The notes below the pieces were generated by a model that saw only the letters and a program-made list of their open reading frames with translations, did not search any database and was not told where the DNA came from. This document shows, piece by piece, positions 1 through 40,614 of a stretch of 64,000 bases of DNA; position 1 is the first letter of the stretch, and each line of letters opens with the position of its first letter. The stretch is from a virus, in IMG/VR virus record IMGVR_UViG_3300044946_000048, positions 24,620 to 88,619 of that record. One strand, given 5' to 3'. The position numbers and the translations under genes are program-made.

Positions 1-252
1 GACTATCATCCGTCTTTGCCCTTAACCCGGCTATCGTCGCGCTAGACGCGCTCCAGCCCTATTTAAGGTTGCTCCAAGAGTGGAGTGCCCAGACTTGAAT
101 GACAATGCTATGAGAACAGAGGCCCGAAGGCTTGTATGAGAAGCATTGTACCTGGCCTTACCCGTCCGCTTACGCGGCCCGCAACTTCCACGGCTCTTTG
201 TCTAGTGGAGTCCTGAACTTACCTCGGTTTCCCGCGATAGTCTAGTTTACCA
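1..252 (-). ncRNA. rnpB: RNase P RNA, reduced type-A-like, 3' end beyond the window edge
   Basis: Minus strand folds into the RNase P core: P2 GACUAUC/GAUAGUC (236-242 with 1-7), P3 CGG-GAAA-CCG, CR-I-like GAGGUAAGUUCAGG (212-225), P5 CUCC/GGAG, P6 CUAGAC/GUCUAG, P7 AAGAG/CUCUU, P8, P9, GGAGCAA-P15-AAUAG, L15 GGGU and J15/2 AGACGGAU. Confidence 0.85.
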
Positions 253-798
253 TTAAGACTTATCTAAACCGCCCAATCCTGTTGAGCCGCCAGTAAGAAA
301 ATTCATCAATGTGTCTACTACTGCTTCCGAATCCGAAACATCCATCTGCTGGCATGTTTGAAATCTATCGTCTGCCCCAACCGTGATGTCGCTCTCCGGT
401 CCAATGAAACCATAATACACGTGGCCTAACTTCTCGTCAACAGTTAAAATTCCAATGATGCGATTACCTAGCCGAGCGCCATTTATTACTAGGTTATGCT
501 TTTCATAAACCGTCGCGGCGCTGAACGGGATTATGCCGTCTTTTGTTTTCGGCTCTTCCTTGTAACTGAACACTACCGGGTTATCTTCCTTCTTAACCGT
601 GGTCGCATCCGTCAAGAAATCTCCGAATGTAGCAGTCGTTCGCTCTGCATTCAACACCATGTGAATGACAGTAAAATCCCGCGAACCACAACTTGCGATA
701 TTATACTCAACAACAGGCTTCGGCTCGGGTTGCTGTGGCATAACTGGTGTTGCCAGCGCCAACATAACTCCGAGGATTATGGCACGGATCGCTTTCAT
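253..798 (-). CDS. exported hypothetical protein
   Basis: ORF begins MKAIRAIILGVMLALATP, which looks like a signal peptide; AGGA precedes the ATG at 798. Confidence 0.7.
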   Translation of the reverse strand: MKAIRAIILGVMLALATPVMPQQPEPKPVVEYNIASCGSRDFTVIHMVLNAERTTATFGDFLTDATTVKKEDNPVVFSYKEEPKTKDGIIPFSAATVYEKHNLVINGARLGNRIIGILTVDEKLGHVYYGFIGPESDITVGADDRFQTCQQMDVSDSEAVVDTLMNFLTGGSTGLGGLDKS

Positions 799-893
799 GT
801 TGCATCCTAAGAGCACCTGATATACAAGGCATTAGTGCTCTGCCGCCTACAAACGCCTAGTAAACTAGGCACGTAGTCCCCTGCTCGGTAAAC

Positions 894-969
894 TGGAAGG
901 CACACTCGGAATCGAACCGAGAATCTACTCTTTAGGAAAGAGTCGCATTGTCCCTTGTGCTATGCGCCC
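894..969 (-). tRNA. tRNA-Arg(CCT)
   Basis: Cloverleaf, anticodon loop TT-CCT-AA, TTCGA T-loop, encoded CCA. Confidence 0.93.
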
Positions 970-977
970 ATAAAACT

Positions 978-1052
978 TGGAGGGCCGTCCCGGAATTGAA
1001 CCGAGGTCTCTTCGTTAGAAGCGAAGCGCACTGTCCGTTGTACGAACAGCCC
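978..1052 (-). tRNA. tRNA-Arg(TCT)
   Basis: Cloverleaf, loop CT-TCT-AA, encoded CCA. Confidence 0.93.
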
Positions 1053-1058
1053 TTAAAC

Positions 1059-1132
1059 TGGCAGACCGTGGATGAATCGAACACCCGCTTCTTGATTTGG
1101 AGGCAAGAAGACTACCACTATCTTAACAGCCT
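1059..1132 (-). tRNA. tRNA-Trp(CCA)
   Basis: Cloverleaf, loop CT-CCA-AA, G73, encoded CCA; one anticodon-stem mismatch. Confidence 0.88.
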
Positions 1133-1139
1133 GCGAAAC

Positions 1140-1490
1140 TTATTTGATTCCTAATTTCTTCAGCAACAAGTAATTCTTGATTGCGTAATATGCTTCCCCG
1201 GCTGCAACGACTCCGGAATAAATCATACCAGCTAACCAGACCTTGCTGCCTATAAGCAATCCGATGAATAGATACGCCGCGCCGCTCAACCAGGTTGCGA
1301 ACGACTGTCCAACCTTACTAAACAGCCAACGCATTATCGGATTGCCTTCAACAAAACCCTTATTAGCCCCGAGGCCAATCATCGTAGTAATACCGTCACC
1401 GATGATTGCTAGCAAGCCGAGAACTAAAACACCGAACAGCGCTAACCACGGACCCGCTGGCACAGACATACCGATTGGTGTAATCATCAT
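1140..1490 (-). CDS. DUF5658-like membrane protein
   Basis: Hydrophobic helices with a D-x-x-TT...G...E-G-N-P motif. Confidence 0.7.
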   Translation of the reverse strand: MMITPIGMSVPAGPWLALFGVLVLGLLAIIGDGITTMIGLGANKGFVEGNPIMRWLFSKVGQSFATWLSGAAYLFIGLLIGSKVWLAGMIYSGVVAAGEAYYAIKNYLLLKKLGIK

Positions 1491-1663
1491 GCCTCGCTCA
1501 GAAATTGTTCACATATTGCCCATGCGGACTTCATCATCCAAGCACGAGCATTGTTGATTCGAACTCGCTCTCCGGTTCTTGCATCGAACACGGTCAACGT
1601 AATCTTCGGTGGAAGATTGAGCCGATAACCAGAAAACGTTCGTTCAACTATTCTATCTCTCAT
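1487..1663 (-). CDS. small hypothetical protein (58 aa)
   Basis: ATG 5 nt after the tRNA-Gly CCA; its stop overlaps the next start (ATGA). Confidence 0.55.
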   Translation of the reverse strand: MRDRIVERTFSGYRLNLPPKITLTVFDARTGERVRINNARAWMMKSAWAICEQFLSEA

Positions 1664-1668
1664 AAAAT

Positions 1669-1743
1669 TGGAGCGGGACATCGGATTCGAACCGACCCTC
1701 TCAGTTTGGAAGACTAATGTGCTACCACTAACACTAGTCCCGC
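1669..1743 (-). tRNA. tRNA-Gly(TCC)
   Basis: Cloverleaf, loop CT-TCC-AA, U73, CCA. Confidence 0.94.
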
Positions 1744-1752
1744 TTTGAAACT

Positions 1753-1826
1753 TGGAGCGACGTGCGGTAATCGAAACCGCGCCTAGTGCTTGGCAAGCAC
1801 TCGTTCTACCACTATACCAACATCGC
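1753..1826 (-). tRNA. tRNA-Gly(GCC)
   Basis: Cloverleaf, loop TT-GCC-AA, U73, CCA. Confidence 0.93.
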
Positions 1827-2271
1827 TCGGAACTTTTTCTCTCGTATAGTGCTGGCACTCTTTACATAGAGTATGATATCCAGACCAGTGAGAAGAATTT
1901 TTACTAAACTGCACCGTTGGGAGAAACTTCTTATGTCTATTGCACCAACTCATTCCTGACGGGCATTTAATTCTCAATTTCGAGAACTGCCCGTCTGGAC
2001 CTGCTGGACGATCAGGCCTGTTACACCAAGTATGAGAAAATGCAATATTCTCCAAATCCCAAAATAATTTTGTGTCTACGTGCAGCCAAGGTTTCTTATG
2101 TTCTATTGTAAGGTCTTCGACCTTCACTATCTTAGACGTACACTTAAAACAAACATCTTCGTTTAACTTTTGAAGACACCTAAACAAAAGTATCTTTTTA
2201 AGTCTCCCCGAGGCTGTACCCCAAGGCATTCCTAGCTGTGATGCCTTCACAGCATTTGAAGTTCCTGACAT
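1783..2271 (-). CDS. HNH-type homing endonuclease inserted in the tRNA array
   Basis: CFKC...TIEHKKPW...NIAFSHTWCN motif plus a C-terminal Cys cluster; AT-rich; GGAAGG precedes the ATG at 2271; stop lies inside tRNA-Gly(GCC). Confidence 0.75.
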   Translation of the reverse strand: MSGTSNAVKASQLGMPWGTASGRLKKILLFRCLQKLNEDVCFKCTSKIVKVEDLTIEHKKPWLHVDTKLFWDLENIAFSHTWCNRPDRPAGPDGQFSKLRIKCPSGMSWCNRHKKFLPTVQFSKNSSHWSGYHTLCKECQHYTREKVPSDVGIVVERVLAKH

Positions 2272-2293
2272 GGATACCTTCCTGTCTTTAACT

Positions 2294-2366
2294 TGCGCCA
2301 AATGGGAGTCGAACCCAATATCACTAGTTTATGAGGCTAGTATGATTATCCGTTTCACTCTGCCGC
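2294..2366 (-). tRNA. tRNA-CAT (Met or Ile2) with degenerate 3' end
   Basis: D, anticodon (CT-CAT-AA) and T arms present; acceptor has a G:G mismatch; no encoded CCA. Confidence 0.75.
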
Positions 2367-2371
2367 AAACT

Positions 2372-2447
2372 TGGTCGCTCTGGTTGGAATCGAACCAACT
2401 ATGCACGGTTTATGAGACCGCTGCCTCATCCGGCTAGCTTCAAAGCG
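2372..2447 (-). tRNA. tRNA-Met(CAT)
   Basis: Cloverleaf, loop CT-CAT-AA, A73, CCA. Confidence 0.9.
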
Positions 2448-2453
2448 AAAACT

Positions 2454-2537
2454 TGGTACCCCGCGAGAGATTTGAACTCCCATGACCGAAGTCGCCGCGT
2501 TCTAAGCGCGGTGTGTCTGCCGTTCCACCAGCAGGGC
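2454..2537 (-). tRNA. tRNA-Leu(TAG)
   Basis: Long variable arm, loop CT-TAG-AA, A73, CCA. Confidence 0.94.
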
Positions 2538-2543
2538 ATAAAA

Positions 2544-2645
2544 TCAATTCCAGAACAAACTAATTTGAAACTTTAAATCTTTTACAAACCAGGCGACAAG
2601 TATTGTGATGAATACTACGCCACCGATGACTTCAAATATGTTCAT
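2544..2645 (-). CDS. putative 33-aa membrane peptide
   Basis: MNIFEVIGGVVFITILVAWFVKDLKFQISLFWN fills almost the whole gap between two tRNAs. Confidence 0.5.
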   Translation of the reverse strand: MNIFEVIGGVVFITILVAWFVKDLKFQISLFWN

Positions 2646-2649
2646 AAAC

Positions 2650-2723
2650 TGGTACTCGGTGGGAGACTCGAACTCCCTTTGCTGGATTGAAAGTCCAACG
2701 TATTACCCATATACGAACTGAGC
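2650..2723 (-). tRNA. tRNA-Glu(TTC)
   Basis: Cloverleaf, loop CT-TTC-AA, CCA. Confidence 0.93.
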
Positions 2724-2729
2724 AAAATC

Positions 2730-2811
2730 TTGAGCCCTTGCTTTCCTTACAGTCCGGCAAGTTAGCATTCAGCCGCAATCGTGTAAGCGACGTGCTGAAG
2801 CCTCGGCTCAA
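2730..2811 (-). ncRNA. three-way-junction RNA with kissing loops (copy A)
   Basis: Closing stem UUGAGCC/GGCUCAA; two hairpins whose loops contain the complementary CUUACA and UGUAAG. Confidence 0.65.
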
Positions 2812-2824
2812 ACTCAAATAAACT

Positions 2825-2898
2825 TGGTACCCGGAAGCGGAATCGAACCGCTGCTACATCCGTGAGAGGGATGCGTCCTACCGTTAAACGATCTGGGC
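2825..2898 (-). tRNA. tRNA-Glu(CTC)
   Basis: Cloverleaf, loop CT-CTC-AC, CCA. Confidence 0.93.
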
Positions 2899-2900
2899 AC

Positions 2901-2930
2901 TGGCGGGCTCCGCCTTTCGACTCGGCCCGT
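2901..2930 (-). ncRNA. CCA-terminated mini-hairpin
   Basis: ACGGGCCGAGUC-GAAA-GGCGGAGCCCG-CCA, located between two tRNAs. Confidence 0.5.
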
Positions 2931-2935
2931 GAAAC

Positions 2936-3013
2936 TGGCGGAATGGATGGGATTCGAACCCACGATAATCTGTCGTGACAGGACAGTGCCATTGGCCGCT
3001 AGGCGACCACTCC
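2936..3013 (-). tRNA. tRNA-Asp(GTC)
   Basis: Cloverleaf, loop CT-GTC-AC, G73, CCA. Confidence 0.94.
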
Positions 3014-3022
3014 GTATAAAAT

Positions 3023-3097
3023 TGGAGCTAAGTGATGGAAATCGAACCATCGTTTCAGCTTTACCAAAGCTGCGTCTTACCATTAGACGAACCAAGC
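3023..3097 (-). tRNA. tRNA-Thr(GGT)
   Basis: Cloverleaf, loop TT-GGT-AA, CCA. Confidence 0.9.
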
Positions 3098-3101
3098 AAA
3101 C

Positions 3102-3175
3102 TGGAGCCAAGTAAAGGAATTGAACCTTTCTTTGTGGTTTACGAAACCACCGTATTACCGCTATACGAACAAGGC
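3102..3175 (-). tRNA. tRNA-Thr(CGT)
   Basis: Cloverleaf, loop TT-CGT-AA, CCA. Confidence 0.92.
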
Positions 3176-3183
3176 ATAAACTC

Positions 3184-3259
3184 TGGAGCACCGCATTCGA
3201 TTCGAACGAATGTGACGAAGGTACAAGCTTCGTATACTAGACCGCTATATGAGCAGTGC
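3184..3259 (-). tRNA. tRNA-Thr(TGT)
   Basis: Cloverleaf, loop CT-TGT-AC, CCA. Confidence 0.92.
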
Positions 3260-3269
3260 TCGAAACTAA

Positions 3270-3405
3270 TTCCAGGCAACAATCGCGTCGAGAGTCTCTT
3301 GAAGAGGGAGTCGAACCCTGCGCCCGATTTTACTCGGGCACCCAGACCATCCTGGCTATCCCCACGTGGCGGGGATAGAAGTATCTCAAAACTACGGCAC
3401 TGGAA
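3270..3405 (-). ncRNA. Y RNA-like RNA with tRNA-like domain
   Basis: Terminal stem UUCCAG/CUGGAA; shares UGCCGUAG...UACUUC...UUGUUGCC with the RNAs upstream of Ro60; internal D-like arm and AGGG-UUCGACU-CCCU T arm. Confidence 0.75.
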
Positions 3406-3412
3406 AATTGTA

Positions 3413-3508
3413 AGTCGCAGGGCAACAGGCGCATCAGGATAGTGTGGGGATTTCACCCACGTTCCTTTTAGGCAAAGAAGTAACCCGACACTAACGGCAC
3501 CTACGACT
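3413..3508 (-). ncRNA. Y RNA-like RNA (short)
   Basis: Terminal stem AGUCGUAG/CUGCGACU; UGCCGUUAG...GGUUACUUC...CUGUUGCC motif; one T-arm-like hairpin GUGGG-UGAAAUC-CCCAC. Confidence 0.72.
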
Positions 3509-3513
3509 AAAAT

Positions 3514-3589
3514 TGGCTGTGTCCCTCGGATTCGAACCGAGACCCTAGGCATTAACAGTGCCCTATCATACCAGTTAGACCAGAACACA
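3514..3589 (-). tRNA. tRNA-Asn(GTT)
   Basis: Cloverleaf, loop CT-GTT-AA, G73, CCA. Confidence 0.93.
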
Positions 3590-3599
3590 ACGTAAACTT

Positions 3600-3674
3600 T
3601 GGAGGCCCCACTCGGATTCAAACCGAGGTTAACGGTTTCGAAGACCGTAGTCCTATTCGCTGAACGATAGAGCC
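3600..3674 (-). tRNA. tRNA-Arg(TCG)
   Basis: Cloverleaf, loop CT-TCG-AA, CCA. Confidence 0.92.
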
Positions 3675-3679
3675 AAACT

Positions 3680-3754
3680 TGGAGGACCGTCGGGGAGTCG
3701 AACCCCGCTCCTGGCGTTCGTAGCGCCATGCATTGTCCGATATACGAACAGTCC
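3680..3754 (-). tRNA. tRNA-Arg(ACG)
   Basis: Cloverleaf, loop CT-ACG-AA, CCA. Confidence 0.92.
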
Positions 3755-3765
3755 GCAAAAATTAA

Positions 3766-3838
3766 TTGAACGCATTCTCCGTCGTAACACAGAGACACAG
3801 GCACGAAGGTTACGATGTTCGTGTCGCCTTACGTTCAA
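3766..3838 (-). ncRNA. three-way-junction RNA with kissing loops (copy B)
   Basis: Closing stem UUGAACGU/GCGUUCAA; loops contain the complementary CGUAAC and GUUACG; CCUGUG between the two hairpins. Confidence 0.65.
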
Positions 3839-3841
3839 AAT

Positions 3842-3917
3842 TGGTAGCCCGTAAGAGAATCGAACTCTTCCGGTCTGGGTGTAAACCAGATGCATACGAC
3901 CAGTTTGCTAACAGGCT
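3842..3917 (-). tRNA. tRNA-Val(TAC)
   Basis: Cloverleaf, loop TT-TAC-AC, A73, CCA. Confidence 0.92.
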
Positions 3918-3982
3918 ACAGAAAATAGCGGCGTACTGCGATACAGGGCTTTCAACCTGCATACGAATTTTGCCGCGAAATT

Positions 3983-4056
3983 TGGTGGACCGTGGGGGAG
4001 TCGGACCCCCAACGCTTCGGTGCAAGCGAAGCAGTATCCCATTTACCTAACAGCCC
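3983..4056 (-). tRNA. tRNA-Ala(TGC)
   Basis: Loop CT-TGC-AC, G3:U70 pair, A73, CCA. Confidence 0.92.
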
Positions 4057-4063
4057 ATAAAAT

Positions 4064-4138
4064 TGGTTCCCAGGGATGGAGTCGAACCATCGGCCTCTTC
4101 TTTATCAGAGAAGCATTCTGCCGCTGAACTACCCGGAA
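4064..4138 (-). tRNA. tRNA-Ile(GAT)
   Basis: Cloverleaf, loop CT-GAT-AA, CCA. Confidence 0.93.
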
Positions 4139-4145
4139 ACGAAAC

Positions 4146-4235
4146 TGGTGGAAGCGAAAGGATTCGAACCTTTTAGTGCCGCAAGGGCATTCTGTTTTAC
4201 AGACAGACACGACCCGCCGTCTTCGCCGCACTTCC
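4146..4235 (-). tRNA. tRNA-Tyr(GTA)
   Basis: Long variable arm, loop CT-GTA-AA, CCA. Confidence 0.92.
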
Positions 4236-4248
4236 ACTGAAACTTGTC

Positions 4249-4337
4249 TGGGAACCGACGGGGGATTCTCCCGTCCCATCCTACGGGCCGCTAGCAGGTA
4301 TCCGTAAGCATTCAATCTATCTCGAACTGCGTTCCCA
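4249..4337 (-). ncRNA. cloverleaf-like RNA without CCA or canonical anticodon
   Basis: 7-bp closing stem UGGGAAC/GUUCCCA enclosing three hairpins; the last is T-arm-like (GACGGG-AGAAUCC-CCCGUC). Confidence 0.55.
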
Positions 4338-4344
4338 CGAAACT

Positions 4345-4419
4345 TGGTACCCCGACCGAGACTCGAACTCGGACATTCTCCTTAAAAGGGAGTATTGCTG
4401 CCACTCGCATCCTCAGGGT
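4345..4419 (-). tRNA. tRNA-Lys(TTT)
   Basis: Loop CT-TTT-AA, T arm, CCA; atypical D arm. Confidence 0.88.
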
Positions 4420-4537
4420 GTAAAATCTGTTCTAAAGATATCTTCCCTCTATCGAATTCCAATGTCCTTTGTCTTACAATGGTGTGGGCCTTAACTGCGT
4501 TCCTACGTGCTGCTTCACTATGTTTAACCGATCTCAT
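4382..4537 (-). pseudogene. 51-aa ORF, possible homing endonuclease remnant
   Basis: GGAGG precedes the ATG; MRSVKHSEAARRN...KISLEQIL recalls phage HNH N-termini; ends inside tRNA-Lys. Confidence 0.4.
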
Positions 4538-4601
4538 ATACCCTCCCTAAAGGGTAGTCCGGGGTGTTAGGGCACCCCGAACCCGATGTAGCTACAAACT
4601 T

Positions 4602-4677
4602 TGGTGCGCCTACTCGGACTTGAACCGAGACCTTACCGGGTAAGAACCGGAGATTCTGCCACTCGAAATCCAGGCAC
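4602..4677 (-). tRNA. tRNA-Lys(CTT)
   Basis: Loop TT-CTT-AC, T arm, CCA. Confidence 0.9.
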
Positions 4678-4687
4678 ACTGAAAACT

Positions 4688-4773
4688 TGGTGCGGCTGGC
4701 AGGATTCGGACCTGCACGCTCGTTGGAGCACGGGGGTTTAAGTCCCGCTTGTCTTCCATTCCATCACAACCGC
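4688..4773 (-). tRNA. tRNA-Leu(TAA)
   Basis: Long variable arm, loop CT-TAA-AC, CCA. Confidence 0.9.
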
Positions 4774-4777
4774 AAAT

Positions 4778-4851
4778 TGGTCGTCGGTGAGTGAATCGAA
4801 CACTCGTCAAGCCCTTATAAGGAGGCCATTCTGCCATTGAACTAACCGACA
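4778..4851 (-). tRNA. tRNA-Ile(TAT)
   Basis: Loop CT-TAT-AA, A73, CCA; weak anticodon stem. Confidence 0.8.
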
Positions 4852-4859
4852 AAAATCAA

Positions 4860-4942
4860 TGGGGCCTAGGCCGAGCTTTAAAAGGCTGGACCATGGAGCA
4901 GAAAGGTTCTCACGCCAGTGTGCTCTTAGTGAGAAGACCCCA
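4860..4942 (-). ncRNA. structured RNA with possible pseudoknot
   Basis: Closing stem UGGGGUCU/AGGCCCCA; hairpin UCUCAC/GUGAGA whose loop GAGCA can pair with downstream UGCUC. Confidence 0.5.
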
Positions 4943-4946
4943 AACT

Positions 4947-5017
4947 TGGTGCGGCCTCATCGAAACCGAACATTCGAATCGTTAAACCGACAATACTATC
5001 TGGCGATTGTCAGCCGC
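4947..5017 (-). ncRNA. CCA-terminated tRNA-like RNA lacking an anticodon arm
   Basis: Acceptor-like GCGGCU/GGCCGC-ACCA with only two internal hairpins (GACAAU/AUUGUC and UCGAA/UUCGA). Confidence 0.55.
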
Positions 5018-5115
5018 AAATCTTTTAGTCATTTTAGTCGGGCGGCTGGTTCACCGTGTCGGTAGCTAACCTAATTTCCCGATTCGTACGTACTTTCCAG
5101 CCCGCACTCTAAACT

Positions 5116-5199
5116 TGGTCCGCCGCAAAGGATTTGAACCTTTACACCCGAAGGCGCTCGCTCTTGAGGCGAGTGCGTCTGCCGTTCCGCCAGCAGCGG
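5116..5199 (-). tRNA. tRNA-Leu(CAA)
   Basis: Long variable arm, loop CT-CAA-GA, CCA. Confidence 0.94.
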
Positions 5200-5267
5200 A
5201 TAATATTTTATGGAGCTTGTCGATGCTCCTGAACGAGGGCAGTTTTTATTCGTGCCCAGAGGAAACT

Positions 5268-5342
5268 TGGTCCTGAACCAGAGAGTCGAACTCCGTACGC
5301 CACCCTCTTCAGGGGTGCGCTCTACCGATGAGCTAGATCAGG
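5268..5342 (-). tRNA. tRNA-Phe(GAA)
   Basis: Cloverleaf, loop CT-GAA-GA, CCA. Confidence 0.94.
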
Positions 5343-5456
5343 ATAAACTTTTCAAACAAGAGCGTAGTGCCTTAACCCGTTTGCTACGCCTTGTTCGCGC
5401 TGCATATAAGTTACTGCTCTGACTACTCACTGCATTCGGAGGGTTCCTCCGAAACT

Positions 5457-5532
5457 TGGGGTTGACGCTCGGACTCGAACCGAGACAGATTCCTTCACAG
5501 GGAGCCGTGCTAACCATTACACTACATCGACC
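5457..5532 (-). tRNA. tRNA-His(GTG)
   Basis: Loop CT-GTG-AA, G-1 and C73, CCA. Confidence 0.93.
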
Positions 5533-39128: not shown

Positions 39129-39266
39129 TTGACGAGTACCGTAGATTGGGGTTACTTCTGACTACGAATCAGATAGTGTAGGTTCGAATCCTGCGGCTCA
39201 TCCTCATGATGAGTCTAGTGTAATGGTAGCACATCCCGTTACTTCAATCGCTTGTCGTCTCGTCAA
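39129..39266 (+). ncRNA. YrlA-like Y RNA with circularly permuted tRNA domain
   Basis: Terminal stem UUGACGAG/CUCGUCAA; anticodon arm, T arm GUAGG-UUCGAAU-CCUGC, loop-closed acceptor stem and D arm in that order; abuts the Ro60 gene. Confidence 0.85.
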
Positions 39267-39273
39267 TTAGCTC

Positions 39274-40614
39274 ATGAGGATGAACATGAAGTTAAACAAA
39301 GCCACGCAGTTTGCACTAACGAAGTTTACTCACGAAGGCGCACCAGCCTATCGACACACGAATGCAGCCCAGGACCTGAGCCGTTCCGTAATGGCCTGCA
39401 TGTTATGGGAAAATACGTTCTACGAGTCCGGAGAGGAAATTGCTACACGCATCCAGAATCTCGTAAAAGCGGTCGATCCGGAAGTCGTTTCTGCCATCGC
39501 CATCGAAGCGCGTGAAAAGATGAACCTGCGTCATGTTCCTTTGCTATTGGTAACTGCGATGGCGAAGCTGCCGACACACCGTCACGCCGTGGCCGAAACG
39601 GCTGCACGTGTTATTCAGCGTGCGGACGAACTGGCAGAAGTGCTTGCCATTTACACGAAGGGCCGCACGGGAACCAAGAAGTTGAACAAGCTTTCAAACC
39701 AGCTTAAGAAGGGCGTGGCTACCGCGTTCACAAAGTTCAACGAGTACAGCCTGGCGAAGTATAACCAGGACAACGAAATCAAGCTGCGTGACGTTTTGTT
39801 CGCAGTGCACCCTCGTCCGTTGAACGACGAACAGGGCGCAGTGTGGAAGCGCCTGGCTCAGAATGAACTTGCTACGCCAGACACTTGGGAAGTTGCGCTG
39901 TCAGCAACCAAGGACAAGAGAGCGGAGTGGACTCGTCTGTTGACCGAAGAGAAACTCGGCGCACTTGCTTTGCTTCGTAACTTGCGTAATATGCAACAGG
40001 CAGGAGTGGACGAGAAATTGGTTCGCTCTGCATTGGCGGCGATGAAGACAGAACGTGTCCTACCGTTTCGCTTCGTCGGCGCAGCCAACCATGCTCCGCA
40101 GTGGGAGCCAGAGTTGGAAGCTGCAATGTTGAAGAACCTTGCAGAAATGCCGAAGTTGCCGGGCAAGACGGCTATCGTTGTGGATAATTCCGGGTCGATG
40201 TCGGACAGAATTTCTGGAAAGTCAGAACTGTCTCGCATCGATGCAGCTTGCGCACTTGCAATTTTGGTGCGTGAAGTCTGCGAACGAGCCGTCGTGATTG
40301 GTTTCGGTTCAACCGCAGCCGTGATTCCGGCCCGCAAGGGATTCGCTTTGCGTGATGCTATCAAGCGAGGCCCGGGCGGTGGTACGAACACAGACACAGC
40401 GTTGGCGCTCGCAAGGCAGCAAGGCTATGATCGTATCATTGTAATCACGGACGAACAGTCTCACCAGCGTATCTCTGGCCCGTTGTCCAGAGCAAAGGGC
40501 TACTTCATCAACGTTGCGTCAAACAAGAACGGCATCGGTTACGGTGCGTGGACTCACTTGGACGGATGGTCAGAAGCTATTCTCCAGTACATTCAAGCAA
40601 TCGAACAGGTATAA
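39274..40614 (+). CDS. Ro60/TROVE-domain RNA-binding protein (Rsr-like)
   Basis: THEG, E.TFYE, R..MNLR, IQRADE, TWE..LS, ALLRNLRNM, VLPFRF and vWA MIDAS motifs VDNSGSM, GGT, ITDEQ; start may be 39286. Confidence 0.95.
   Translation: MRMNMKLNKATQFALTKFTHEGAPAYRHTNAAQDLSRSVMACMLWENTFYESGEEIATRIQNLVKAVDPEVVSAIAIEAREKMNLRHVPLLLVTAMAKLPTHRHAVAETAARVIQRADELAEVLAIYTKGRTGTKKLNKLSNQLKKGVATAFTKFNEYSLAKYNQDNEIKLRDVLFAVHPRPLNDEQGAVWKRLAQNELATPDTWEVALSATKDKRAEWTRLLTEEKLGALALLRNLRNMQQAGVDEKLVRSALAAMKTERVLPFRFVGAANHAPQWEPELEAAMLKNLAEMPKLPGKTAIVVDNSGSMSDRISGKSELSRIDAACALAILVREVCERAVVIGFGSTAAVIPARKGFALRDAIKRGPGGGTNTDTALALARQQGYDRIIVITDEQSHQRISGPLSRAKGYFINVASNKNGIGYGAWTHLDGWSEAILQYIQAIEQV

What the first reader, a model, noticed from the sequence alone, without database searches (positions are those of the whole stretch)
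1..252. Phage-encoded RNase P ribozyme with a remodelled specificity domain
Seen: the minus strand forms P2, P3, the 5' strand of P4, P5, the P6 pseudoknot, P7-P9, P15-P17 and an L15 GGU. The pairings hold although the primary sequence differs from the bacterial consensus (GAGGUAAGUUCAGG versus GAGGAAAGUCCGG). P18 and P13/P14 are absent. I cannot find the CR-II (ACAGAAA-like) or CR-III (UGAAA-like) motifs. The P12-like helix ACAAUGCU/AGCAUUGU instead carries two copies of UUCUCAUA. Known: CR-II and CR-III form the T-loops that bind the tRNA elbow. Inference: a minimal RNase P with altered substrate choice, possibly tuned to the non-canonical RNAs of this array. No RnpA is in the window, so host protein would be needed.
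Basis: partly seen in the sequence, partly recalled or inferred. Interest (0 to 1): 0.92.

Follow-up and report, generated by a model that had tools for sequence, protein, structure and literature searches.

The report
Phage RNase P ribozyme, rebuilt tRNA-reading half
An uncultured soil phage carries, inside its own cluster of 33 tRNA genes, a complete but slimmed-down copy of the RNase P ribozyme (the RNA enzyme that trims new tRNAs), in which the part that normally grips the tRNA "elbow" has been rebuilt.

Summary
The minus strand of window 1-253, plus 44 nt left of base 1, encodes a complete 297-nt RNase P RNA. It matches Rfam RF00010 over the whole model at 87 bits, E 1e-26, below the 100-bit cut-off. 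The predicted P4 3' strand and P1 partner are there.

I found 30 other distinct homologues with the same design in viral and metagenome contigs. On their alignment 92.5% of proposed pairs form, against 34-41% when partners are slid, and 47 of 66 pairs show double-sided changes.

All 31 lie in same-strand tRNA arrays. The record is a tailed phage with tRNAs for all 20 amino acids, 33 of 33 ending in encoded CCA.

P13/P14, P18 and CR-II are absent. CR-III is replaced by a conserved CAUUCRAG, which is T-loop-like. The UUCUCAUA duplication is unique to this RNA (1 of 31).

No RnpA is encoded here or in 5 relatives' records. "Altered substrate choice" is untested; the phage tRNAs have normal elbows.

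This scan already reported phage RNase P RNAs on other DNA. I found no paper on them.

The parts
1..253 (-). RNase P RNA gene, RNA positions 1-253 of 297. The last 44 nt lie left of window base 1 at L001 1457-1500 (record C1 24576-24619). They hold a P19-like GCAA hairpin, CR-V ACAGAA, the P4 3' strand CCUGGCU and the P1 3' strand GUUUGCCA.
   Evidence: RF00010 67.5 bits, E 3.4e-20, cut at 3'. Full length on L001 at 87.0 bits, E 1.1e-26. Same place.
212..252 (-). 5' part of the catalytic domain: P1 5' strand (252-245), P2 5' strand (242-236), a P3 stub with GAAA loop (234-225), and CR-I with the P4 5' strand GAGGUAAGUUCAGG (225-212). The invariant bulged U is at window 216.
   Evidence: Pair lists. 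P2 is 98.6% paired and P4 100% paired with 4 of 7 pairs covarying. U38, C39 and G41 are invariant in 31 sequences.
72..210 (-). P5 (210-207 with 75-72), the 5' strand of the P6 pseudoknot (204-200), P7 (198-194 with 80-76), and the specificity domain they enclose.
   Evidence: P5 87.9%, P6 96.8% (5 of 5 pairs covary), P7 100% (5 of 5 covary).
164..193 (-). P8 with the conserved 9-nt loop UGGAAGUUG (193-179) and P9 with a GUAA tetraloop (178-164).
   Evidence: P8 and P9 are 100% paired. The P8 loop and GACGGGUAAG are invariant, but they were part of the search pattern.
82..163 (-). P10/P11 stack extended by a 4-bp helix (CAGG/UCUG), enclosing the P12-like hairpin and the joining strands. The CR-II strand is replaced by the dinucleotide UA (window 150-149).
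   Evidence: Helix 10 is 92.9% paired with 5 of 8 pairs covarying. None of the 31 RNAs has ACAGARA at J11/12.
102..149 (-). P12-like hairpin ACAAUGCU/AGCAUUGU with a UUCG-capped tip and an internal loop that carries UUCUCAUA on both strands (window 142-135 and 116-109).
   Evidence: Positions; MFE fold -15.0 kcal/mol. Not conserved: the hairpin is 4-86 nt in relatives.
94..101 (-). CAUUCAAG, a conserved T-loop-like joining strand (UUCAA fits U-U/G-N-R-A) at the position of CR-III GGGUGAAA.
   Evidence: C153 A154 U155 U156 A159 G160 are at least 90% conserved. YAUU(C/G)RAG occurs in 30 of 31. The T-loop reading is inference.
20..68 (-). P15 (68-65 with 23-20), P16 (58-55 with 32-29), P17 (51-48 with 42-39), the L17 strand of P6 (47-43), and L15 CGGGU with the CCA-binding GGU (29-25).
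   Evidence: P15 99.2%, P16 100%, P17 89.4% paired. CGGGU is present in 31 of 31.
1..15 (-). CR-IV AGACGGAUG (15-7) and the P2 3' strand GAUAGUC (7-1). P18 is missing between P15 and CR-IV.
   Evidence: AGAnGnAUG is present in 31 of 31. The P18 block goes from 24 model positions to 0.
894..5531 (-). 28 tRNA genes upstream on the same strand. 6 more lie downstream at record C1 23501-24150, left of the window.
   Evidence: ARAGORN. All 20 amino acids are covered and 33 of 33 canonical tRNAs end in encoded CCA.

Best explanation
This is a functional, phage-encoded RNase P RNA derived from the bacterial type-A ribozyme.

Inferred mechanism:
1. It is made as part of the phage's long minus-strand tRNA transcript.
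2. It is released by the cuts that free the neighbouring tRNAs.
3. It folds into an intact catalytic domain: P1-P5, P15-P17, the P4 and P6 pseudoknots, CR-I, CR-IV and CR-V, and the bulged U of P4.
4. It borrows the host's RnpA protein.
5. It removes the 5' leaders from the burst of 33 phage pre-tRNAs. Its L15 GGU pairs with their encoded 3'-CCA.

Its specificity domain is a simplified lineage-wide redesign. P13/P14 and the CR-II T-loop strand are gone. P11 is lengthened by a 4-bp helix. One T-loop-like strand (CAUUCRAG) remains where CR-III was. P12 is a free-evolving hairpin. Elbow docking by the classical double T-loop cannot occur, so recognition of the tRNA elbow is probably weaker or made differently. 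CCA pairing and the protein's contact with the leader would compensate.

Shown by computation: the homology, the fold, the conservation, the tRNA-array context, and the absence of RnpA from the phage records. Inferred: transcription and processing, use of host RnpA, catalysis, and the way the elbow is read.
For: Homology: full-length RF00010 match at 87 bits, E 1.1e-26 and 1.9e-28.

Selection on the fold, from 31 distinct homologues:
- 92.5% of 2021 cells pair, against 72.7 +/- 0.6 in shuffles (0 of 500 reach it) and 33.6-41.0% with partners slid.
- 47 of 66 pairs have double-sided changes, against 15-25 when slid.
- P4 is 100% paired, with G-C, C-G and A-U at one position.
- P6 is 96.8% paired and all 5 of its pairs covary.

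Catalytic motifs are kept: CR-IV, CR-V and L15 CGGGU in 31 of 31, and the bulged U38 is invariant.

Context:
- 31 of 31 have 3-19 same-strand tRNAs within 1.5 kb, the nearest often 2-12 nt away.
- This record has 34 ARAGORN genes in one array, covering all 20 amino acids, with 33 of 33 carrying CCA.
- Relatives' tRNAs carry CCA in 434 of 440.

Phage identity: terminase large subunit and portal; Prim-Pol, RNR, PolA and UvrD.

No RnpA: 0 of 1 and 0 of 5 records, including 2 complete DTR genomes.

Weak hint of expression: contigs from 3 metatranscriptome runs of 3 studies hold a relative about 88% identical over almost exactly the gene. X6 is a 291-nt contig over L001 1467-1745. X5 stops at 1470. 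DNA run X2 reads on to 1432.
Against: - The score is below Rfam's curated cut-off (87 against 100 bits).
- No activity, transcript ends or host are known.
- The RNA-library contigs are assemblies of a relative, not this phage. They cannot show strand or level, and RNA libraries can hold DNA.
- The double T-loop that docks the elbow in every structurally known bacterial RNase P (PMC3664808, passages read) cannot form as known. An RNA without it might be a poor tRNA enzyme.
- This RNA has an extra U in J3/4 (GAGG-U-AAG), shared with only 1 other of the 31 (L303). It lies next to the active site.
- In this phage the gene is separated from the tRNAs by two ORFs (426 nt to the nearest tRNA), unlike most relatives.
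- The record is 83% complete, so a phage RnpA is not excluded for this phage itself.
Confidence: 0.75

Rival explanations
1. Specialised ribozyme. The rebuilt specificity domain redirects cleavage towards non-tRNA or tRNA-like RNAs of the array (Y-RNA-like and other structured spacers), or discriminates phage from host precursors, rather than serving general tRNA maturation.
For: The canonical elbow-docking module is absent in all 31. This phage also encodes a Ro60/TROVE protein with a partial tRNA-like Rfam hit beside it. Earlier notes of this scan list non-tRNA folds in the array (unchecked).
Against: The same S-domain design occurs in 31 RNAs from many different arrays. The only part that differs between them, the P12-like hairpin, has no conserved feature. 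The neighbours are ordinary tRNAs with canonical elbows and CCA. L15 GGU is kept, which fits CCA-bearing tRNA substrates.
Confidence: 0.12
2. Protein-independent ribozyme, or one using a new protein partner. The phage RNA works alone in vivo, or with an unrecognised phage protein instead of host RnpA.
For: No RnpA in 6 of 6 records searched. Bacterial RNase P RNAs are catalytic alone in vitro (established knowledge; PMC13254310, listing only).
Against: No conserved protein gene accompanies the RNA. In most relatives it is flanked directly by tRNAs (nearest 2-12 nt). The 181-aa ORF next to it here has no Pfam or PHROG match and is not a shared neighbour. Reduced RNase P RNAs generally depend more on protein, not less (recalled).
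Confidence: 0.08
3. Decoy or relic. The RNA is catalytically dead. It either soaks up host RnpA to shut down host tRNA processing, or it is a decaying copy of a captured host gene.
For: Sub-threshold Rfam score, loss of several helices, and an extra U beside the active site in this copy.
Against: Decay is excluded by the covariation and by invariant catalytic nucleotides across 31 distinct sequences. A pure RnpA sponge would not need the P4 bulged U, CR-IV, CR-V, L15 GGU and the P6 pseudoknot all preserved.
Confidence: 0.04

Closest known systems
Bacterial class A RNase P RNA (E. coli M1 RNA / rnpB, Thermotoga maritima P RNA; Rfam RF00010)
   Same: Full-length alignment to the model. It has P1-P5, the P4 and P6 pseudoknots, P7-P11, P15-P17, CR-I, CR-IV and CR-V, the bulged U in P4, and the L15 GGU that pairs with tRNA CCA.
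   Different: - It is 297 nt and scores 87 bits, under the 100-bit cut-off.
- It has no P13/P14, no P18, and P3 is a 2-3-bp stub.
- CR-II is absent and CR-III GGGUGAAA is replaced by CAUUCAAG, so the double T-loop (AG..A / UG..A; PMC3664808) is not there.
- P4 is respelled (AGU-U-CNGG / CCNG-GCU instead of AAG-U-CCGG / CCGG-CUU) with the same 3 bp + bulged U + 4 bp geometry.
- It is encoded by a phage inside a tRNA array.
Other phage-encoded RNase P RNAs in IMG/VR records with a canonical S-domain core (such as L064 from a 463-kb record, L067 from a 168-kb DTR record, and L202, L203, L182)
   Same: They sit in tRNA arrays and have lost P13/P14 (43 model positions to 0-2). L202, L203 and L182 share the respelled P4.
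   Different: They keep ACAGAGACGAG (CR-II) and GGGUGAAA (CR-III) and score 141-208 bits, over the cut-off. The RNA here belongs to a derived subgroup without these motifs.
Diverged RNase P RNAs of CPR bacteria (Lui et al. 2021, PMC8172020; passages read)
   Same: They are type-A-derived, fall below the Rfam thresholds, and some lack P12, P13, P14 and P18.
   Different: Those are the cells' only RNase P RNA genes on bacterial chromosomes. The paper's structures are in supplementary figures that I could not see, so the state of their CR-II and CR-III is unknown to me.
RNase P RNAs with a reduced or missing specificity domain: mitochondrial RNAs lacking J11/12-J12/11 (PMC3664808, passage read) and Pyrobaculum type T (recalled, not checked)
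   Same: They have lost the elbow-docking module while keeping the catalytic core.
   Different: In mitochondria the loss goes with elbow-less tRNAs. Here the substrates keep canonical elbows, and most of the S-domain (P7-P11) is retained.

Membership tests
Bacterial RNase P RNA class A (Rfam RF00010) | Covariance-model score at or above the curated gathering cut-off (100 bits) | tested here: not met
   87.0 bits, E 1.1e-26, full model 1-367. Homology is significant but curated membership is not reached.
Bacterial RNase P RNA class A (Rfam RF00010) | P4 long-range helix with a bulged U, flanked by CR-I (GAGGAAAGUCC-like) and CR-V (ACAGAA-CC-GGCUUA-like) | tested here: met
   P4 is 100% paired in 31 sequences and 4 of 7 pairs covary. 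U38 is invariant. CR-V is present in 31 of 31. The spelling differs (AGU-U-CAGG / CCUG-GCU).
Bacterial RNase P RNA class A (Rfam RF00010) | CR-IV (AGAnGnAUG) in J18/2 and the P2 helix | tested here: met
   AGACGGAUG is present, as in 31 of 31. P2 is 98.6% paired.
Bacterial RNase P RNA class A (Rfam RF00010) | P15-P16-P17 arm with an L15 GGU for tRNA 3'-CCA, and the P6 pseudoknot (type A, not type B, architecture) | tested here: met
   P15 99.2%, P16 100%, P17 89.4%, P6 96.8% paired. CGGGU in 31 of 31. Clan competition keeps RF00010 as the best model.
Bacterial RNase P RNA class A (Rfam RF00010) | Specificity-domain double T-loop module (CR-II 'AG..A' in J11/12 and CR-III 'UG..A' in J12/13) that docks the tRNA elbow | tested here: not met
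   None of the 31 has ACAGARA at J11/12; the strand is 2 nt (UA). The CR-III position reads CAUUCAAG, with U where the core G stands. The definition of the module is from PMC3664808 (passages read).
Bacterial RNase P RNA class A (Rfam RF00010) | Peripheral helices P13/P14 and P18 (common in type A, but known to be dispensable in some lineages) | tested here: not met
   The P18 block goes from 24 positions to 0, and the P12-P14 block is 63 nt against 90 and holds a single hairpin.
Bacterial RNase P RNA class A (Rfam RF00010) | Catalysis of pre-tRNA 5'-leader removal, with an RnpA protein partner | not testable with these tools
   No assay is possible. RnpA (PF00825) is absent from the phage record and from 5 relatives' records. 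The host is unknown.
Phage tRNA-array RNase P RNAs (informal group seen in IMG/VR and in this scan) | RNase P RNA homologue lying on the same strand within an array of phage tRNA genes in a record with phage hallmark genes | tested here: met
   28 tRNAs upstream and 6 downstream on the same strand. Terminase and portal are present. 31 of 31 lineage members and 21 of 31 other viral RNase P loci have tRNA neighbours.

The most novel reading that the evidence does not exclude
These phages carry a distinct structural class of RNase P RNA in which the otherwise universal double-T-loop elbow dock has been replaced by a single T-loop-like strand on an extended P11, although the substrates keep normal elbows. 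If so, the tRNA elbow is either read by a mode not seen in any solved RNase P or is not read at all. That would make this a natural minimal-specificity ribozyme. By borrowing the host protein, it could also give the phage its own control over which precursors are matured during infection.
Probability: 0.3. Interest if true: 0.85.

Novelty: new variant of a known kind. Interest (0 to 1): 0.74.

Why it matters
RNase P RNA is treated as a cellular housekeeping ribozyme. In 8 literature searches I found no description of a virus-encoded one.

This case shows that phages with full tRNA sets also bring the ribozyme that matures those tRNAs. It also shows a whole phage lineage that has discarded the double T-loop module, which is thought to be the conserved device for gripping the tRNA elbow in RNase P, the ribosomal L1 stalk and T-boxes (PMC3664808, PMC4919913).

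That gives a natural series for asking how much elbow recognition the ribozyme needs. The series runs from the canonical form, to a form without P13/P14, to a form with respelled P4, to the form without CR-II.

It also matters for annotation. 6 of the 12 lineage RNAs scored here, this one included, fall under Rfam's cut-off, so standard pipelines miss them.

Tried and rejected
1. The gathering-threshold Rfam scan of the window found no RNase P. This is explained by the truncation at the window edge and the sub-threshold score.

2. BLASTN against 50,697 GenBank phage records gave no match, with this RNA or with a canonical-looking viral RNase P RNA. BLASTN is too insensitive for this RNA, so that says little.

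3. The 20-nt form of the CR-I pattern hit 9 loci: L016, L017, L018, L022, L024, L026, L033, L036, L038. They have no other RNase P motif and look like coding sequence. I rejected them as chance. The same applies to L020 and L025.

- It gave 108 new loci, of which I passed 50 to the model search. 42 were picked by a motif-or-edge filter and 8 by eye.
- 46 of the 50 were held. 5 matched, 4 of them over the cut-off.
- The other 58 loci were not scored.

5. The genome-collection scan with the lineage pattern gave 30 loci, and none matched the lineage profile. This is one 19-base pattern, so absence of the design from cellular genomes is not shown.

6. L185 (214 nt, 59 bits) lacks a recognisable P4 5' strand. 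I left it out.

7. L300, L284 and L302 were partial, and 6 sequences were exact duplicates. All were dropped before alignment A1. L195 was not held for the model search and was only read by eye.

8. I tested whether the UUCUCAUA internal loop is a relocated double T-loop. It is not conserved, so I rejected the idea.

9. I considered pairing between CAUUCAAG and the P8 loop. I rejected it because the CAUUGGAG subgroup keeps the same P8 loop.

10. The promoter and terminator scan around the gene found nothing beyond chance: 1 promoter-like site against 1.9 expected, and 3 terminator-like sites against 1.6 expected.

11. P1 counts as only 60.5% paired. MAFFT misaligns its 3' strand, and I did not correct the alignment.

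12. Ascertainment. Lineage members were fetched with a pattern covering the P8 loop, P9 and GACGGGUAAG, so those features are shared by construction. CAUUCRAG, the missing CR-II, the P4 respelling and the tRNA context are independent of the pattern.

14. Supplementary files of papers were closed. Those of PMC8172020 may show how similar the CPR RNAs are.
Full report
WHAT IS THERE

The window is bases 24620-88619 of an 88,619-bp IMG/VR virus record, which is linear and estimated 83% complete by CheckV. A standard Rfam scan of the window reports only tRNAs: 26 matches, all RF00005.

A permissive scan of window 1-900 finds RF00010 (bacterial RNase P class A) on the minus strand at 1-253. It scores 67.5 bits, E 3.4e-20, covers model positions 1-320 of 367, and is marked as cut at the RNA's 3' end by the window edge.

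With the flank from the record (L001; window base 1 = L001 1501) the match becomes complete. It spans L001 1457-1753 (-), 297 nt, model 1-367, at 87.0 bits, E 1.1e-26. That is still below the curated 100-bit cut-off. A second pipeline places it at C1 24576-24872 with the same score, E 1.9e-28.

IS IT A REAL, SELECTED RNA?

Pattern scans of viral contigs and of metagenomes, followed by covariance-model or nhmmer scoring, gave 30 further distinct RNAs of the same design. They include RNAs from two complete phage genomes with direct terminal repeats: G056 (70.8 kb, 263 nt, 131.8 bits) and G091 (101 kb, 318 nt, 84.6 bits).

On the 31-sequence alignment A1 I wrote the type-A secondary structure onto the columns, mapped from our RNA, and counted it:
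- 92.5% of 2021 cells form standard pairs. Shuffles give 72.7 +/- 0.6%, and 0 of 500 reach the observed value. Sliding the partners by 1-3 columns gives 33.6-41.0%.
- 47 of 66 pairs show changes on both sides, against 15-25 when slid.
- The covariation score is 0.554, against 0.065-0.107 when slid.

Per helix:
- P4 is paired in 100% of cells. One position reads G-C (21), A-U (6) and C-G (4).
- The P6 pseudoknot is 96.8% paired and all 5 pairs covary, for example CUAGAC/GUCUAG here and CUCAAC/GUUGAG or CUAAGU/ACUUAG elsewhere.
- P7, P8, P9 and P16 are 100% paired.
- P1 scores only 60.5% because MAFFT misaligns its 3' strand.
- P3 was not counted.

The catalytic signatures are conserved. CR-IV AGAnGnAUG, CR-V and L15 CGGGU are in 31 of 31, and the bulged U of P4 (U38) is invariant. 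This excludes a decaying pseudogene.

CONTEXT

The record is a tailed phage. It has a terminase large subunit (phrog_38, E 3e-37) and a portal (phrog_1216), and also Prim-Pol, class II RNR, PolA, UvrD and Ro60/TROVE. The closest GenBank phage PolA is only 38.6% identical, so the host is unknown.

ARAGORN finds 34 genes in one minus-strand array at C1 23501-30150. The RNase P RNA lies inside it, with 28 genes upstream and 6 downstream. The tRNAs cover all 20 amino acids, and 33 of 33 canonical tRNAs end in an encoded CCA.

Here the RNA is bracketed by two ORFs. Upstream is a 181-aa ORF with no Pfam or PHROG match, and downstream is an HNH endonuclease. In the relatives it usually abuts tRNAs. 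All 31 have 3-19 same-strand tRNAs within 1.5 kb, and the nearest is often 2-12 nt away. 434 of 440 of the relatives' tRNAs encode CCA.

RnpA (PF00825) is absent from this record and from 5 relatives' records, including both complete genomes.

The promoter and terminator scans around the gene show nothing above chance.

EXPRESSION (WEAK)

One soil metagenome run holds the stretch completely and is probably its source. An aquatic run holds 43% of its words.

I laid three soil or rhizosphere metatranscriptome runs from three studies at 80% likeness or better:
- X6 has a 291-nt contig over L001 1467-1745 with 33 differences.
- X5 has a 399-nt contig over 1470-1752.
- X7 has fragments.
- Both long RNA contigs end at 1467-1470 with no loose end, while DNA run X2 continues to 1432.

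These are contigs of a relative. They show presence in RNA libraries, not strand or level.

THE SPECIFICITY DOMAIN

The Rfam alignment shows P18 deleted (24 positions to 0) and only 63 nt where the model has 90 for P12-P14. Across the lineage the S-domain reads as follows, in 5'-to-3' order:
- P7
- P8, with an invariant 9-nt loop UGGAAGUUG
- P9, with a GNRA loop
- GACGGGUAAGGC
- a covarying 4-bp extension of P11 (UUCG/CGAA; CAGG/UCUG here; CCGA/UCGG in L209)
- a 2-nt joiner, UA
- a hairpin
- (U/C)CAUUC(A/G)AG, or CAUUGGAG in a subgroup
- the P11 and P10 3' strands, GGCACUCC

CR-II (ACAGARA) is absent from J11/12 in 31 of 31. The one ACAGAGA found lies in J5/7 of L263. The four GUGAAA found are stem or loop sequence of the variable hairpin.

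The strand YAUU(C/G)RAG is present in 30 of 31, all but the most reduced member, L184. It occupies the place of CR-III. Compare GGGUGAAAC-GGGC in the intermediate L202 with UCAUUCAAG-CGAAGGC here. Its UUCAA, UUCGA or UUGGA fits the pentanucleotide T-loop pattern (recalled consensus).

[quoted passage not shown] Its invariant AG..A and UG..A cores dock the tRNA G19:C56 platform. They note that a T-loop is stable only when an outside base fills its gap (PMC3664808, passages read; see also PMC4919913).

In this lineage the AG..A loop is gone and the G of UG..A is a U. So the known module cannot form. At most one T-loop remains, and what fills its gap is unknown. That reading is inference.

ACAAUGCU/AGCAUUGU pair, UUCUCAUA lies on both strands, the tip is UUCG, and the MFE is -15.0 kcal/mol. 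But it is the least conserved element. It ranges from 4 nt (L285) to 86 nt (L208) with no shared internal loop, and the duplication occurs in this RNA only. It is therefore unlikely to be the substitute for CR-II and CR-III.

THE CATALYTIC CORE HAS A LINEAGE-SPECIFIC SPELLING

Most members read GAGGAAGUUCNGG ... CCNGGCUAU instead of GAGGAAAGUCCGG ... CCGGCUUA. Written as pairs, the new form is (AGU)-U-(CNGG) with (CCNG)(GCU). It keeps the 3 bp, bulged U and 4 bp of canonical P4.

L208, L301, L288 and L254 carry the canonical spelling together with the derived S-domain. L202, L203 and L182 carry the new spelling together with a canonical CR-II and CR-III. So the two traits are separable.

Our RNA and L303 have one extra U, GAGG-U-AAG.

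WIDER PICTURE

RNase P RNAs are common in IMG/VR records:
- 26 of 38 records fetched with the canonical CR-I pattern score over the cut-off.
- 4 of 46 did so in a second set.
- 6 of 15 did so in a third set, with 5 more below the cut-off.

Of the 31 such loci outside the lineage, 21 have tRNAs within about 1.5 kb. The other 10 have none and are mostly short contigs, so they may be host DNA.

The nine examined in detail all sit beside tRNAs. The eight whose alignments were shown lack P13/P14, and most keep CR-II and CR-III.

The pattern for the derived S-domain hit 30 places in 185,579 species' genomes, and none is a family member. That fits a phage-borne design but does not prove it.

This scan had already reported phage RNase P RNAs on other genomes, several with soil relatives sharing a few words with this one. 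Those notes are leads, not evidence.

LITERATURE

Eight full-text searches found no paper describing a virus- or phage-encoded RNase P RNA. A 2024 historical review mentions phages only as sources of substrates (PMC11143913, passages from a term search).

The nearest precedent for sub-threshold type-A RNAs lacking P12-P14 and P18 is in CPR bacteria (PMC8172020, passages). Subscription journals and supplements were not searchable.

VERDICT

The best reading (confidence 0.75) is a working phage RNase P RNA that matures the phage's own CCA-bearing tRNAs with host RnpA. It has a simplified, lineage-wide S-domain that no longer has the classical elbow dock.

Whether this changes substrate choice is open. 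The phage tRNAs have ordinary elbows (29 of 33 UUCRA T-loops by a naive positional test, 32 of 33 D-loop GG), which speaks against co-evolution with odd substrates.

Novelty: a new variant of a known kind.

Noticed in passing
window 256-798 (-): A 181-aa ORF with a hydrophobic, signal-peptide-like N-terminus. Its stop codon abuts the 5' end of the RNase P RNA. It has no Pfam or PHROG match and is not a shared neighbour in relatives.
   Followed up: partly
L001 1025-1393 (-), left of window base 1: An HNH homing-endonuclease ORF (PF01844; phrog_23251, E 5.5e-22) sits between the RNase P RNA and the six downstream tRNAs. A similar ORF lies at L001 3283-3801. These look like mobile insertions that split the array.
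   Followed up: partly
window 39141-39194 (+) and 39274-40614 (+): A partial tRNA-model hit (30.9 bits, model positions 10-63) lies just upstream of a TROVE/Ro60-vWA protein. This is consistent with a phage Y-RNA/Ro60 pair, as other notes of this scan suggest.
   Followed up: no
window 3297-3366 (-): ARAGORN calls a tRNA-like gene with an undetermined two-base anticodon and no encoded CCA, inside the array.
   Followed up: no
L185 1501-1714 (+) (record G069, 5.6 kb): A 214-nt RF00010 match at 59 bits. It keeps P5, P15-P18, CR-IV and ACAGAA but has no recognisable CR-I or P4 5' strand. It could be an even more reduced RNA or a fragment.
   Followed up: partly
L064 1965-2040 (+); L066 2582-2655 (-): Sub-threshold tmRNA-model hits (41 and 32 bits, cut-off 47) lie next to RNase P RNAs in two other viral tRNA arrays.
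   Followed up: no
alignment A1, columns 2-6 and 505-509: The end of P1 is nearly invariant (UUGGU ... ACCAA) across the lineage, while the rest of P1 varies. It could be a processing signal.
   Followed up: no
L205/L299, L296, L206/L209 S-domain hairpins: Several relatives also carry a motif on both strands of the P12-like hairpin: CGAGCGCUGACAU twice and UUACCGAGCGG twice. A GAGAGC...GCGUAGAUA internal loop is shared by L206 and L209. I have no explanation for this.
   Followed up: partly
L044, L045, L047-L049, L051, L057-L059, L181: Ten RNase P RNA loci in IMG/VR records, nine of them scoring 235-328 bits and L181 179 bits, have no tRNA within about 1.5 kb. They are mostly on short contigs and may be host DNA filed as viral.
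   Followed up: no
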